The notes beneath the pieces were generated by a model. That model worked only from the letters and a program-made list of their open reading frames with translations, was not told the DNA's origin and searched no databases. A DNA stretch of 62,877 nucleotides, counting the filler, from Basidiobolus ranarum (lineage: Eukaryota): the NCBI GenBank assembly GCA_040143965.1. It is 9 parts of 9 records of this genome, joined end to end, with 100 filler letters (N's around TTAATTAATTAA, not from the genome) between each part and the next. Parts side by side here need not be neighbours in the genome. Positions count along the whole stretch, not along the records: positions 7,022 to 13,939 come from JASJQH010001217.1; 8 more parts are not named here. The stretch is one strand, 5' to 3'. Shown piece after piece: positions 7,693 to 9,574 of this stretch. The position numbers and the translations under genes were made by a program. Numbering within the stretch: the stretch's first letter is position 1; each line of letters begins with the position of its first letter.

Positions 7693-7878
7693 CACGCTCA
7701 GCTATCTCGATGCAATCAGGAACACAAGATCATTCATAATGCTTCCACTCCCGAAGGGCTTCAACAAAATGAACAATCACAAGCGTGACTCCCGCCTATG
7801 GCACCACAATATCATCAGCGCGTGATATGTATATTATTTGTAATTGCAGTCTTAGGTTATAACTAAGACGTGAGGATT
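7693..7878 (-). ncRNA. Box C/D snoRNA-like gene with 5' extension, copy 1
   Basis: Minus strand: CACGC-GC-TGATGA (box C, 7812-7818) ... CTGA-GCGTG (box D, 7698-7701), giving canonical K-turn geometry with a 5-bp terminal stem. Also a 5' hairpin GTCTTAG/CTAAGAC, a CC-TTCG-GG loop and TATATAA at 7898-7904. Near-identical to the 9175-9360 copy. Confidence 0.75.
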
Positions 7879-8054
7879 CATTATCTCCAAAAAATCATTA
7901 TATAGCAGAAACATCTCATCATAATCTTATGGGAATATATTAATTTTCGGATACTGAAAATTTTATTTCAAGAGTAGTTTATTTGAATTTAACAAAGGAA
8001 AATTTAGAATAAATTTACGTTTGCAAAATATCCTCTAGTTTGTCAAGTATCGTA

Positions 8055-8943
8055 ATGTTTCCAGTGACAATAAGACAAGGTTTAAGAAGTGCACGTAGCT
8101 TCAGTACTACTGCCTTTAATAATACACCTCACTTGGTTCAGGTATGACTTTTCTTATTGAATCTTATTGTATTTTCATTACATACTCACTGTTACATCTT
8201 TAGGTTGAAAGTTCCATTAAAGGTGGAAGTTTCCTAGTATCTAGAAGATTAGCAGAACGTCTTCATTATCAGTACACACCATATTATGATTTCCTCAAGG
8301 CTGTGGTGTTCAAAGTAAGCTACATATTAAAACTCGCTTATGCAACCTTTAAAATAACTTTTTCTCGCTCTAGGGATTCAAACAAGAGATAGTCAACTAT
8401 CAAGAGCTTCCCAGTGACTTGGCAGATTTCGTTCAATTTGTAAAAGAAACCTCCATTACAGTAGCACCAATTTCAAAGTTCGATATTGAAGTTGATGGGG
8501 AAAATGTCACTGGTGCTGCATTATCTCACCGTGAATTAAACAAAGTTGCCAAAAGTCTCTTGCAAGAAGCACAAGTGGAGAAAGCAGTAACTAGCCGATT
8601 CTATGACATTATCAAGGAATCCTCCTCCAAAGGAGTGGTTTTCCCTGGTGCCAATAATCTACGTAAATCTGTTGACTTCAAGTTTTTTTTGGACGAGGAT
8701 ATTCGTTCTAGAGCCAGAAGAGAATTTAACCGTATTAAATGGCGCGATTCACGTAGAAATGTCCTGAAGATGGATGACATAGTACAACAGATTCGTAAAG
8801 GTGAAGCTAATCTTGACCTTCGTAGTATGAAGAAGAATGCTATCATCGTTAAGGCTGATGATATGGATATGGAAGAACTAGTAGAGACTTTAGCGCTAAA
8901 GATCTTGGAGATAAGCGGTGATCAAGACCCTATTGAACAATAA
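8055..8943 (+). CDS. Bacterial-type cytidylate kinase (Cmk)-fold protein with degenerate P-loop and mitochondrial-type presequence; exons 8055-8141, 8204-8314, 8374-8943
   Basis: Three phase-0 GT-AG-joined exons give one open frame. N-terminus MFPVTIRQGLRSARSFSTTAF is Arg/Ser-rich with no acidic residues. Cmk-like blocks in order: VDGENVTG, KGVVFPG, KFFLDEDIRSRARR, MDDIVQQIRK, NAIIVKADDMDMEELVE. Confidence 0.8.
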
Positions 8944-9174
8944 CTTTTTTATGTACTTTCATTGTAGATTTTAACCATTTTCATTATCAGTGCAGTACAT
9001 GACTTATCAGGGTCTATAGAATGAATAAAATACTTAACAATTAAAACTCACATGACACTTATAATTTGTTGGCATGATGGATAGTTAAGTACTTGATTAA
9101 AATCTAACAAATTGTGTGTTTTGTTTAAGTTTTGAAGATTTCGTATAGTATTGTTTAAATGTAAATAATAACAG

Positions 9175-9360
9175 CACGCTCAGCTATCTCGATGCAATCA
9201 GGAACACAAGATCATTCATAATGCTTCCACTCCCGAAGGGCTTCAACAAAACGAACAATCACAAGCGTGACTCCCGCCCATGGCACCACAATATCATCAG
9301 CGCGTGATATGTATATTATTTGTAATTGCAGTCTTAGGTTATAACTAAGACGTAAGGATT
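9175..9360 (-). ncRNA. Box C/D snoRNA-like gene with 5' extension, copy 2
   Basis: Box D 9180-9183, box C 9294-9300, terminal stem 9175-9179/9302-9306, TATATA at ~9381-9387. I count only three substitutions versus copy 1 over ~185 nt, while the flanks diverge. Confidence 0.75.
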
Positions 9361-9574
9361 CAACGATTCGACCACGCGAAATATATACCTCTTTTTCTAG
9401 CGCTAAACTTATGGGACCATATATTATTCTTGAAGAAATACTAATAAGAAATTGAATGATTAAATATTATTTATACAGCTTTGATAAGGGCATGTTAGGA
9501 ATAGAAAACGAGTTGATTACAAAATAAACAATTTATACAAATAACCAGTTGGTAGGCAAGTGTAGTAGTTTGAA

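What the first reader, a model, noticed from the sequence alone, without database searches (positions are those of the whole stretch)
7693..9387. Duplicated, independently promoted, 5'-extended box C/D RNA of unassigned family
Seen: two ~185-nt direct repeats 1482 bp apart that differ by three transitions (A/G, A/G, C/U on the minus strand, all G-U tolerant). Each has a textbook C/D K-turn closed by CACGC/GCGTG, a ~55-nt extension 5' of box C with a 7-bp hairpin, and a UUCG loop. Identity stops at the same 5' point (GAATCC), yet both copies keep TATATA 19-20 nt further upstream. Known: capped, independently transcribed C/D RNAs with 5' extensions (U3, U8, U13/snR45, snR4) act as pre-rRNA chaperones or ac4C guides rather than as ordinary methylation guides. 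Inference: the 5' AUCCUUACGU of copy 2 can pair 9/10 with the conserved 18S 3' end GCGGAAGGAU, and internal GAUCUUGU can pair with 18S ACAAGGUU, a U13/snR45-like bipartite guide. AUCCUUAC and CCUGAUUGC also recall vertebrate U8, which budding yeast lacks. It may be a divergent U13/snR45, a fungal U8-like RNA or a new family.
Basis: partly seen in the sequence, partly recalled or inferred. Interest (0 to 1): 0.72.

Follow-up and report, generated by a model that had tools for sequence, protein, structure and literature searches.

The report
Duplicated 5'-extended box C/D snoRNA gene
Two near-identical, separately promoted genes in a Basidiobolus-like fungus encode a small nucleolar RNA with a long 5' leader that fits no catalogued family and may be the ribosomal RNA acetylation guide that has not been found in fungi outside budding yeasts.

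Summary
Two minus-strand copies (7693-7879 and 9175-9361), 1482 bp apart, encode the same 187-nt RNA and differ by three transitions. Each has box C and box D closed by CACGC/GCGUG, a 55-nt 5' leader with a 7-bp hairpin, and a conserved TCCCATAAG + TATATA pair upstream in otherwise unrelated sequence.

This box C/D terminal-stem arrangement occurs 3 times in the window, against 0.25 expected in shuffles. No third copy, target-site duplication or Rfam match was found.

With the K-turn enforced, the core folds into one closed rod. Only the 5' leader is predicted single-stranded. No canonical methylation guide was found against 18S, 5.8S or the first ~1360 nt of LSU from stand-in eukaryotes.

The U13/snR45 reading (18S helix 45 ac4C guide) is the best single reading, but only modestly supported. 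The 5' end carries the family's AUCCUU core at the family's position, and its pairing to the 18S 3' end beats about 96% of shuffles. The internal element lacks the near-universal GUUAC and is predicted to be buried.

The U8 resemblance is two shared 9-mers in different structural contexts. No homologues, own rDNA or expression data could be obtained, so the family stays unassigned.

The parts
9175..9361 (-). Copy 2 of the predicted 187-nt box C/D RNA (nt 1 = 9361, nt 187 = 9175)
   Evidence: The 5' end is inferred from the identity boundary and the TATA spacing. The 3' end is inferred from the terminal stem.
7693..7879 (-). Copy 1 of the same RNA. It differs at nt 8 (C, 7872), nt 83 (A, 7797) and nt 110 (A, 7770).
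9408..9416 (-). Copy 2 upstream element TCCCATAAG (snRNA-type USE/PSE-like; the function is inferred)
   Evidence: the pattern TCCCATAAG-N(15-30)-TATATA has 2 matches, 0.01 expected. On its own with 1 mismatch the 9-mer is not enriched (11 matches, 15.6 expected).
9382..9387 (-). Copy 2 TATATA, 20 nt upstream of the G of GAATCC
7926..7934 (-). Copy 1 upstream element TCCCATAAG
7899..7904 (-). Copy 1 TATATA, 19 nt upstream of the G of GAATCC
9352..9361 (-). nt 1-10, GAAUCCUUAC: single-stranded 5' end and candidate antisense element. It holds the AUCCUU core shared with SNORD13/snR45 5' ends.
   Evidence: Unpaired probability 0.97 in copy 2 and 0.86 in copy 1. Duplexes. Family sequences.
9331..9351 (-). 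nt 11-31: 7-bp hairpin GUCUUAG-UUAUAAC-CUAAGAC
9307..9330 (-). nt 32-55: A/U-rich single-stranded linker
   Evidence: Unpaired probability 0.94
9302..9306 (-). nt 56-60: 5' strand (CACGC) of the terminal stem
9294..9299 (-). Box C, UGAUGA (nt 63-68); copy 1 at 7812-7817
9232..9241 (-). nt 121-130, GCCCUUCGGG: tip of the central rod with the UUCG loop
It is predicted to lie inside the 10-bp stem 102-111/143-152.
9194..9202 (-). nt 160-168, CCUGAUUGC: the 9-mer shared with human U8
   Evidence: (paper passage)
9180..9183 (-). Box D, CUGA (nt 179-182); copy 1 at 7698-7701
9175..9179 (-). nt 183-187: 3' strand (GCGUG) of the terminal stem
9155..9174 (-). Conserved 3' trailer of copy 2 (copy 1: 7673-7692). 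It probably holds 3'-end formation signals. Copy 1 has a T5 run here and copy 2 has none.

Best explanation

Shown from sequence:
- A canonical C/D K-turn motif closed by a 5-bp stem.
- A sharp start of identity 19-20 nt downstream of a TATA box.
- A second conserved upstream element at fixed spacing.
- Only three transitions between the copies. One converts G-U to A-U in a stem and one lies in a predicted loop.

Inferred:
- The RNA is made from its own snRNA-type promoter and assembles with the core C/D proteins through the K-turn.
- Its core is a closed structural rod.
- It acts by antisense pairing of its exposed 5' leader, not by guiding 2'-O-methylation. That places it in the class of U3, U8, U13/snR45 and snR4.

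The specific mechanism I favour is the U13/snR45 one. The 5' end (nt 3-12, AUCCUUACGU) would anneal to the 3' strand of 18S helix 45 (GCGGAAGGAU). Possibly aided by nt 149-156 on the other flank, this would hold the CCG cytidine unpaired for acetylation (ac4C) by Kre33/NAT10.
For: For the RNA gene call:
- The repeat and its differences are confirmed.
- The C/D terminal-stem motif occurs 3 times in the window against 0.25 in shuffles.
- The promoter pair has 2 matches against 0.01 expected.
- Both copies give the same constrained fold, and the G110/A110 change keeps a pair with U144.

For a non-methylating class:
- No complementarity above shuffles was found to plant 18S, 5.8S or the LSU 5' 1362 nt. 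The best scores were 28, 22 and 35, against null means of 30, 24 and 30.
- The same was true for yeast-like and ascomycete partial rDNA.
- A 94-nt canonical-looking C/D candidate elsewhere in the window scored 36 against LSU with the same method.
- The sequence next to box D is paired inside the rod, with unpaired probability 0.20 for nt 167-178.

For U13/snR45:
- AUCCUU sits at nt 3-8 of the predicted transcript. SNORD13 sequences begin GAUCCUUC in most of the insect and plant entries read. Two of 29 budding-yeast snR45 sequences begin AUAUCCUUCC or AUUAUCCUUCC, and the others begin AUGACCUUCC or AUGAACCUUCC.
- snR45 GS1 is nt 1-15 pairing with 18S 1781-1798. GS2 pairs with 1760-1767 (PMC5464676, section 8 read).
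- The flank 3' of the acetylated cytidine is one of only two 18S clusters that pair as well with nt 1-31 of copy 2 (7 of 1787 windows). 74 of 2000 shuffles do as well.
- Under a pre-set bipartite rule, helix 45 ranks 1 of 31 CCG sites.
- Several yeast snR45 sequences also have a small hairpin directly after the 5' element. This is my reading by eye.
- The authors of PMC9226516 state that they found no SNORD13 counterpart in fungi other than budding yeasts (discussion passage). A guide is therefore expected but missing in this lineage.
Against: - No Rfam family matches, including SNORD13, snR45, snR4, U8 and U3.
- The bipartite helix-45 score is unremarkable among all 18S positions: rank 195 of 1773, and 400 of 1778 and 4th of 31 CCG sites under a looser rule.
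- The internal element matches only UCUUGU of the family's UCUUGUUAC. It is sequestered in the minimum-energy fold, and freeing it costs about 6 kcal/mol (-42.1 against -48.2).
- Copy 1 has C at nt 8, opposite an A of 18S.
- The 5' end pairs as well or better with other sites: plant 18S GUAAGGAUU (9 bp, -12.5), an ascomycete LSU 5' end GUAGGGAU (-11.1) and LSU AAGGAUUC (-10.1).
- The leader is two to three times longer than in known U13/snR45.
- The 3' trailer does not mask the 5' end as described for pre-SNORD13 (-1.0 and -0.3 kcal/mol).
- There are no expression data, no homologues and no rDNA from this organism.
Confidence: 0.4

Rival explanations
1. It is a U3/U8-like pre-rRNA folding or processing chaperone of its own family. 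The single-stranded 5' leader (nt 1-10 and/or nt 32-55) would anneal to a pre-rRNA site other than helix 45, such as the 5' end of LSU rRNA (as proposed for U8), an internal 18S site, or a spacer. The C/D rod would serve only for stability and nucleolar targeting.
For: - Only the leader is predicted accessible.
- nt 2-10 pair perfectly (9 bp) with GUAAGGAUU of plant 18S, the best 18S site for nt 1-12.
- nt 3-10 pair (8 bp) with GUAGGGAU at the 5' end of an ascomycete LSU. By hand, nt 160-166 (CCUGAUU) pair with the adjoining GAUCAGG of the same stand-in.
- nt 32-48 pair with the conserved LSU segment UUGUUUGGGAAUGCAG in three stand-ins, at -11.1 to -11.4.
- Two co-linear 9-mers are shared with human U8. 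My rough estimate is about 0.09 shared 9-mers expected per pair of RNAs of these lengths.
Against: - None of these duplexes exceeds shuffles.
- The stand-in rRNAs differ among themselves at these very sites. Yeast has AUAAGGAUU, and LSU 5' ends vary.
- The shared U8 motifs lie in different structural contexts, and one covaries in mouse.
- U8 is described as limited to vertebrates (PMC8993069, first quarter of the text read).
- There is no Rfam U8 or U3 hit.
Confidence: 0.3
2. It is an ordinary 2'-O-methylation guide whose target was not among the RNAs I could test: the 3' ~2 kb of LSU rRNA, snRNAs or tRNAs. The 5' leader would simply be a feature of independent transcription.
For: - It has canonical C and D boxes.
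- A possible degenerate D'/C' pair (GUGA at nt 100-103, UGAAUGAUC at nt 144-152) can be read by eye.
- About two-thirds of LSU and all snRNAs were untested.
Against: - No guide-length complement was found to 18S, 5.8S or the LSU 5' third.
- The bases upstream of box D are paired within the rod.
- The candidate D' and C' face each other inside a 10-bp stem.
Confidence: 0.1
3. It is not a functional RNA gene. It would be a short dispersed repeat (SINE- or MITE-like) or a decaying pseudogene pair that happens to carry C/D-like motifs.
For: - Only 208 nt are duplicated, with unrelated flanks.
- Expression could not be tested.
- MFE z-scores are weak, at -1.3 and -1.7.
Against: - There is no third copy in 62.9 kb.
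- No target-site duplications or terminal inverted repeats are seen at the ends (by eye).
- Promoter elements are conserved at fixed spacing outside the repeat.
- The K-turn motif is far above chance.
- The substitutions preserve structure.
Confidence: 0.07

Closest known systems
SNORD13 (U13) / yeast snR45, the box C/D guide for ac4C in 18S helix 45
   Same: - Both are independently transcribed box C/D RNAs whose extreme 5' end, upstream of box C, carries (G)AUCCUU complementary to the 18S 3' end.
- Both have a variable helical middle.
- Both have a UCUUGU-containing stretch 17-30 nt before box D that can pair with 18S just upstream of helix 45.
   Different: - There is an A/C interruption after AUCCUU, and a further mismatch in copy 1.
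- The internal element lacks GUUAC and is predicted to be paired.
- No helix closes a loop around it.
- The leader before the terminal stem is 55 nt, against about 20 nt.
- There is no Rfam match.
U8 (SNORD118), the vertebrate LSU pre-rRNA processing snoRNA
   Same: - Both are box C/D RNAs with a leader of ~55-62 nt containing a hairpin before box C.
- They share AAUCCUUAC in the leader and CCUGAUUGC 6-10 nt before box D.
   Different: - In U8 both motifs are stem strands with other partners.
- The functional U8 5' end (its first 15 nt, per PMC8993069) is unrelated to this RNA's 5' end.
- U8 is reported from vertebrates only.
- There is no Rfam hit.
U3 snoRNA
   Same: Both have their own promoter, multiple gene copies, a single-stranded 5' domain that does the pairing, and a structured C/D-containing 3' domain.
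   Different: No A/A', GAC or B/C boxes are seen by eye, there is no Rfam U3 hit, and this RNA is shorter.
Yeast snR4 (ac4C guide for 18S helix 34) and snR190 (LSU chaperone)
   Same: All are orphan-type box C/D RNAs of about 190 nt that act by antisense pairing without methylation.
   Different: - snR4 GS1 (nt 1-5 pairing with 18S 1286-1290) and GS2 (pairing with 1264-1271) have no counterpart at the corresponding places here.
- snR190 has a 15-nt perfect complement to LSU domain I, and nothing of that length was found.

Membership tests
Box C/D snoRNA (general) | [quoted passage not shown] | tested here: met
   The arrangement is CACGC-GC-UGAUGA ... CUGA-GCGUG in both copies. The motif scan gave 3 hits in the window against 0.25 in shuffles.
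Box C/D snoRNA (general) | Stable transcript bound by Snu13, Nop56, Nop58 and fibrillarin | not testable with these tools
Canonical 2'-O-methylation guide | Antisense element of 10-21 nt ending next to box D or D' | tested here: inconclusive
   None was found against 18S, 5.8S or the LSU 5' ~1360 nt of stand-in eukaryotes. The LSU 3' ~2 kb, the snRNAs and this organism's own rRNA were not available. An attempt to fetch LSU 3' sequence failed.
SNORD13 / snR45 | 5'-terminal antisense element (GS1) to the 18S 3' end, 3' of the acetylated C | tested here: inconclusive
   Pairing is 6 bp + mismatch + 3 bp, at -10 kcal/mol. 70 of 2000 shuffles do as well. It is one of two best 18S clusters for copy 2 and one of 4-5 for copy 1. 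Copy 1 has an extra mismatch.
SNORD13 / snR45 | Internal antisense element (GS2, core UUGUUAC) to 18S just 5' of helix 45, exposed in a loop | tested here: not met
   Only GAUCUUGU is present (8 pairs, 3 of them G-U). GUUAC is absent, though I read it in 27 of 29 yeast sequences. Unpaired probability is 0.18. The energy ranks 631 of 1773 positions.
SNORD13 / snR45 | Match to the family covariance models | tested here: not met
   There was no hit at gathering score or at E<=10. The Rfam models rest on vertebrate and Saccharomycetaceae sequences; this last point is recalled, not from a call.
SNORD13 / snR45 | Helix-45 ac4C depends on the RNA | not testable with these tools
   This needs deletion of both copies plus ac4C sequencing.
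U8 (SNORD118) | Match to the family model, and the first ~15 nt complementary to the LSU 5' end | tested here: inconclusive
   There is no Rfam hit. nt 3-10 pair 8 bp with an ascomycete LSU 5' end, but LSU 5' ends differ among the stand-ins and this organism's is unknown. The shared 9-mers lie in a different structural context.
U3 | Boxes A'/A, GAC and B/C, and a model match | tested here: not met
   There is no Rfam hit. The boxes are not seen by eye.
snR4 | GS1 at nt 1-5 pairing with 18S 1286-1290, and GS2 pairing with 1264-1271 (PMC5464676) | tested here: not met
   The 5' end GAAUC is not complementary to UAGUU, and there is no CCACC-type element (by eye). With loose rules a fit to helix 34 can be forced (-8.6 and -15.2). 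This shows how weak such fits are.
SINE / MITE | Many dispersed copies, target-site duplications, terminal inverted repeats or an internal pol III promoter | tested here: not met
   There are two copies only in 62.9 kb, and no TSD or TIR by eye. A genome-wide count is impossible because no genome is held.

The most novel reading that the evidence does not exclude
The RNA would be a fungal counterpart of vertebrate U8, or a previously unknown U3/U8-like family. It would be a capped box C/D chaperone whose 5' leader clamps a pre-rRNA site, for example the 5' end of LSU rRNA, to time folding or cleavage. That would mean this class of snoRNA is older and more widespread than the vertebrate-only U8 suggests.
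Probability: 0.2. Interest if true: 0.75.

Novelty: new member of a known kind. Interest (0 to 1): 0.45.

Why it matters
ac4C in 18S helix 45 is nearly universal in eukaryotes. Its guide RNA is known in animals, plants and budding yeasts. The survey in PMC9226516 could find none in other fungi and left open whether the guides share ancestry or arose by convergence.

A Basidiobolus-lineage RNA that starts with the animal/plant-like (G)AUCCUU, yet has a yeast-like size, would be a testable candidate for the missing link.

If it is instead a leader-driven chaperone, it would widen the small club of U3, U8 and snR190-type RNAs. In either case it documents a TCCCATAAG + TATA promoter type for small RNA genes in an early-diverging fungus.

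Tried and rejected
- **Rfam.** I searched the whole window at gathering score, 1851 nt at E<=10 and 206 nt at E<=10. Nothing relevant appeared. The only snoRNA rows were weak SNORD47 and SNORD44 matches outside the RNA.
- **Homologues.** The earlier-findings index returned nothing. blastn showed that none resembles the RNA beyond the anchors.
- **This organism's genome and expression.** Neither is available.
- **Stand-in rRNA.** An ITS1-primer scan of prokaryote assemblies yielded contaminant eukaryotic rDNA. A sarcin-ricin-loop motif scan of viral contigs for the LSU 3' part gave 14 loci, none of them rRNA. 6 of the 14 were checked by cmscan, and all 14 lacked a second LSU motif. The genome search on locus handles gave no answer twice.
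- **Full-length RNAduplex.** This was uninformative because it allows giant loops.
- **Ungapped complementarity scans.** Nothing exceeded shuffles.
- **SNORD13-like hairpin exposing the internal element.** It scored -29.5 against -48.2 kcal/mol and is rejected. The forced pairs were only partly honoured by the constraint.
- **3' trailer masking the 5' end, as in pre-SNORD13.** This is absent.
- **Other readings.** The snR4, U3, snR190 and SINE/MITE readings are rejected (see the membership table).
- **Left out.** I did not type the snR45, SNORD13 or U8 sequences seen in papers into any tool. All comparisons with them are by eye.
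Full report
**What is there**

The repeat finder reports one direct-repeat family in 7000-10000: 208 nt at 7673-7880 and 9155-9362, 98% identical, 1482 bp apart. 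Read on the minus strand, each copy starts its identity at TGAATCC and runs about 20 nt past a GCGUG stem strand.

I number the RNA from the G of GAAUCC (copy 2: 9361; copy 1: 7879) to the last G of GCGUG (9175; 7693). This gives 187 nt. The copies differ at nt 8 (C in copy 1, U in copy 2), nt 83 (A/G) and nt 110 (A/G), all transitions. Two more differences fall in the shared 3' trailer.

The RNA has these parts:
- nt 1-10: a free 5' end, GAAUCCUUAC.
- nt 11-31: a 7-bp hairpin.
- nt 32-55: an A/U-rich linker.
- nt 56-60: CACGC, then GC, then box C UGAUGA (nt 63-68).
- About 110 nt of core with a UUCG-tipped hairpin.
- nt 179-182: box D CUGA, then GCGUG (nt 183-187).

A scan for UGAUGA ... CUGA closed by a stem of 5 bp or more finds only these two sites and one other (52317-52410, minus strand) on both strands of the 62.9-kb window. 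Twenty shuffled windows gave 0.25 on average.

**Promoter-like elements and the mobile-element test**

Upstream of the identity boundary the two loci are unrelated, except for TATATA 19 and 20 nt before the G of GAATCC and TCCCATAAG a further 20-21 nt upstream. The joint pattern has 2 matches in the window against 0.01 expected. The 9-mer alone with one mismatch is not enriched.

This is the pattern expected of separately transcribed small-RNA genes whose transcribed part is kept alike by selection or gene conversion.

Copy 1 has a T5 run four bases after the stem and copy 2 has none. I therefore cannot tell pol II from pol III and lean towards pol II. The resemblance of TCCCATAAG to the plant snRNA upstream element is recalled, not tested.

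blastn with 7-nt words finds no third copy in the window. I see no target-site duplications or terminal inverted repeats at the ends.

**Organism and surroundings**

An ammonium transporter at 56775-58286 is 85% identical to one of Basidiobolus meristosporus. A DUF2421-type protein at 36283-37938 is 60-61% identical to Basidiobolus proteins. The window therefore comes from a fungus near Basidiobolus.

The copies flank a plus-strand, intron-containing gene whose last exon has a sub-threshold Cytidylate_kin match. A PX-domain gene lies just beyond copy 2.

No whole genome is held. The earlier-findings index has nothing on it.

**Family search**

Rfam gives no match at gathering score in the whole window. 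It gives nothing relevant at E<=10 in 1851 nt or in 206 nt around copy 2. By model, the RNA is therefore not a member of U3, U8, SNORD13, snR45, snR4, snR190 or U14.

**Fold**

Unconstrained folds are not exceptional, with z-scores of -1.3 and -1.7. With the K-turn enforced, both copies give the same structure.

The leader is open except for its hairpin. Unpaired probabilities are 0.97 (copy 2) and 0.86 (copy 1) for nt 1-10, and 0.94 and 0.92 for nt 32-55.

The whole core between the boxes forms one irregular rod made of these helices:
- 69-72/175-178
- 74-79/167-172
- 86-91 and 93-96 with 154-163
- 102-111/143-152
- the UUCG tip

G110/A110 pairs with U144 in either copy, and nt 83 lies in an internal loop. 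The bases next to box D are paired. This is not how methylation guides look, and it makes the leader the likely working end.

**Target tests**

The organism's rDNA was unavailable, so I fetched stand-ins. An ITS1-primer scan of prokaryote assemblies returned contaminant eukaryotic rDNA:
- Two plant loci with complete 18S, 5.8S and about 1360 nt of LSU.
- A Saccharomyces-like 18S 3' part.
- An ascomycete locus and one further eukaryotic ITS-LSU 5' locus.

Ungapped complementarity scans found nothing above shuffles. The same method gave the 94-nt candidate at 52317-52410 a score of 36 on a conserved LSU segment, which serves as a rough positive control. The 3' two-thirds of LSU could not be obtained.

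**U13/snR45 reading**

From Sharma et al. 2017 (PMC5464676, section 8 read):
- snR45 GS1 is nt 1-15, pairing with 18S 1781-1798.
- snR45 GS2 is nt 120-127, pairing with 18S 1760-1767.
- In both ac4C guides the 5' end precedes box C, and a variable helical region fills the middle.

Supplementary Data 1 of PMC9226516 (parts 3 and 5 read) lists 29 budding-yeast snR45 sequences and many SNORD13 sequences.
- The animal and plant RNAs mostly begin GAUCCUUC.
- The yeast RNAs begin AUGACCUUCC. Two of the 29 begin AUAUCCUUCC or AUUAUCCUUCC.
- By my eye, 27 of the 29 yeast RNAs contain CUUGUUAC.

This RNA begins GAAUCCUUAC and so has the AUCCUU core at the family's position. That position was fixed independently, by the TATA spacing and the identity boundary.

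Support for this reading:
- nt 1-12 pair with the 18S 3' end at -10 kcal/mol, and 70 of 2000 shuffles do as well.
- nt 1-31 reach -15, and 74 of 2000 shuffles do as well.
- For copy 2, this flank is one of only two 18S clusters that pair as well.
- Under a preset bipartite rule, helix 45 ranks first of 31 CCG sites.

Evidence against it:
- The same score ranks 195 of 1773 over all 18S positions. Under a looser rule it ranks fourth of 31 CCG sites.
- The internal element is only GAUCUUGU, without GUUAC, and its energy is ordinary.
- The internal element is buried in the 10-bp stem, and freeing it costs about 6 kcal/mol.
- Copy 1's C8 faces an A of 18S.
- The 3' trailer does not mask the 5' end.
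- With loose rules helix 34 can be fitted too, which shows how little such fits prove.

PMC9226516 reports that a Drosophila SNORD13 works with one antisense element. It also reports that no counterpart was found in fungi other than budding yeasts (passages). A divergent guide in this lineage is therefore plausible and would be new.

**U8 and other chaperone readings**

Human U8, as printed in bioRxiv 10.1101/2021.08.01.454689 (passages), does contain AAUCCUUAC and CCUGAUUGC in the same order as here.
- In the dot-bracket models given there, the first motif spans the loop and 3' strand of the 5' hairpin.
- The second motif is the 3' strand of an internal stem, and mouse has CCUGGUUGC.
- The contexts therefore differ from those in this RNA.
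- A review calls U8 unique to vertebrates (PMC8993069, first quarter of the text read).

The leader also pairs with other rRNA sites about as well as with helix 45:
- Plant 18S GUAAGGAUU: 9 bp, -12.5. Yeast has AUAAGGAUU, at -8.7.
- An ascomycete LSU 5' end: 8 bp, -11.1.
- LSU AAGGAUUC: -10.1.
- For the linker, a conserved LSU segment at about -11.

None of these is significant and none can be judged without the organism's own rDNA.

**Verdict**

I consider the RNA-gene call about 85-90% likely: a duplicated, self-promoted, 5'-extended box C/D snoRNA. Its family is unassigned.

| Reading | Confidence |
|---|---|
| U13/snR45-type ac4C guide acting mainly through its 5' end | 0.4 |
| Separate leader-driven pre-rRNA chaperone, including a U8-like one | 0.3 |
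| Ordinary methylation guide to an untested target | 0.1 |
| Non-functional repeat | 0.07 |

Literature searches for 'Basidiobolus' with 'snoRNA' found one unrelated paper. Searches for 'snR45' with 'pombe' and 'ac4C' found 7 papers, seen as listing only except for PMC9226516. Neither turned up a described counterpart. The fungal snoRNAome paper found snR45 only in Saccharomycetaceae and snR4 only in Ascomycota (PMC5824354, passages). Supplements of that paper were not examined and might list early-diverging fungal families.

Noticed in passing
window 52317-52410 (minus strand): This is a third box C/D candidate of 94 nt with stem UUUGU/ACAAA, GCUGAUGA and CUGA. Its nt 46-60, just before a GUGA (possible D'), pair with the conserved LSU segment AAAUUUGGGUAUAGG of a stand-in (score 36). 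Another stretch pairs with 18S AAUGGCUCAUUAAAU (score 30). It is probably an ordinary methylation guide, and it has no Rfam hit.
   Followed up: partly
window 6922-6965, 6978-7021, 13940-13983, 13996-14039 and so on, about every 7 kb: Paired runs of N (704 N in all) recur at regular intervals. They look like masked or withheld stretches rather than assembly gaps.
   Followed up: no
window 5144-5537 and 6530-6969 (plus strand): Short ORFs repeat the motif MTDMGE(F/L)RY(F/L)LG(I/M)PIKR. By eye they look like fragments of copia-type retrotransposon polymerase in two degenerate copies just upstream of copy 1. They were not tested against any library.
   Followed up: no
window ~8055-8943 (plus strand), between the two RNA copies: This is an intron-containing gene on the opposite strand. 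Its 189-aa last exon has a sub-threshold Pfam Cytidylate_kin match (23.6 bits against a cutoff of 26).
   Followed up: partly
window 7926-7934 and 9408-9416 (minus strand): The shared upstream element TCCCATAAG resembles, from memory, the plant snRNA upstream sequence element (TCCCACATCG-type) combined with a TATA box. This would be of interest for small-RNA promoter evolution in early-diverging fungi.
   Followed up: no
loci L038, L046, L045, L003, L012 (genome contigs): Complete or partial plant and fungal rDNA units sit inside assemblies labelled as bacteria, such as Collinsella MAGs and a Streptomyces isolate. This is eukaryotic contamination of prokaryote genome records.
   Followed up: partly
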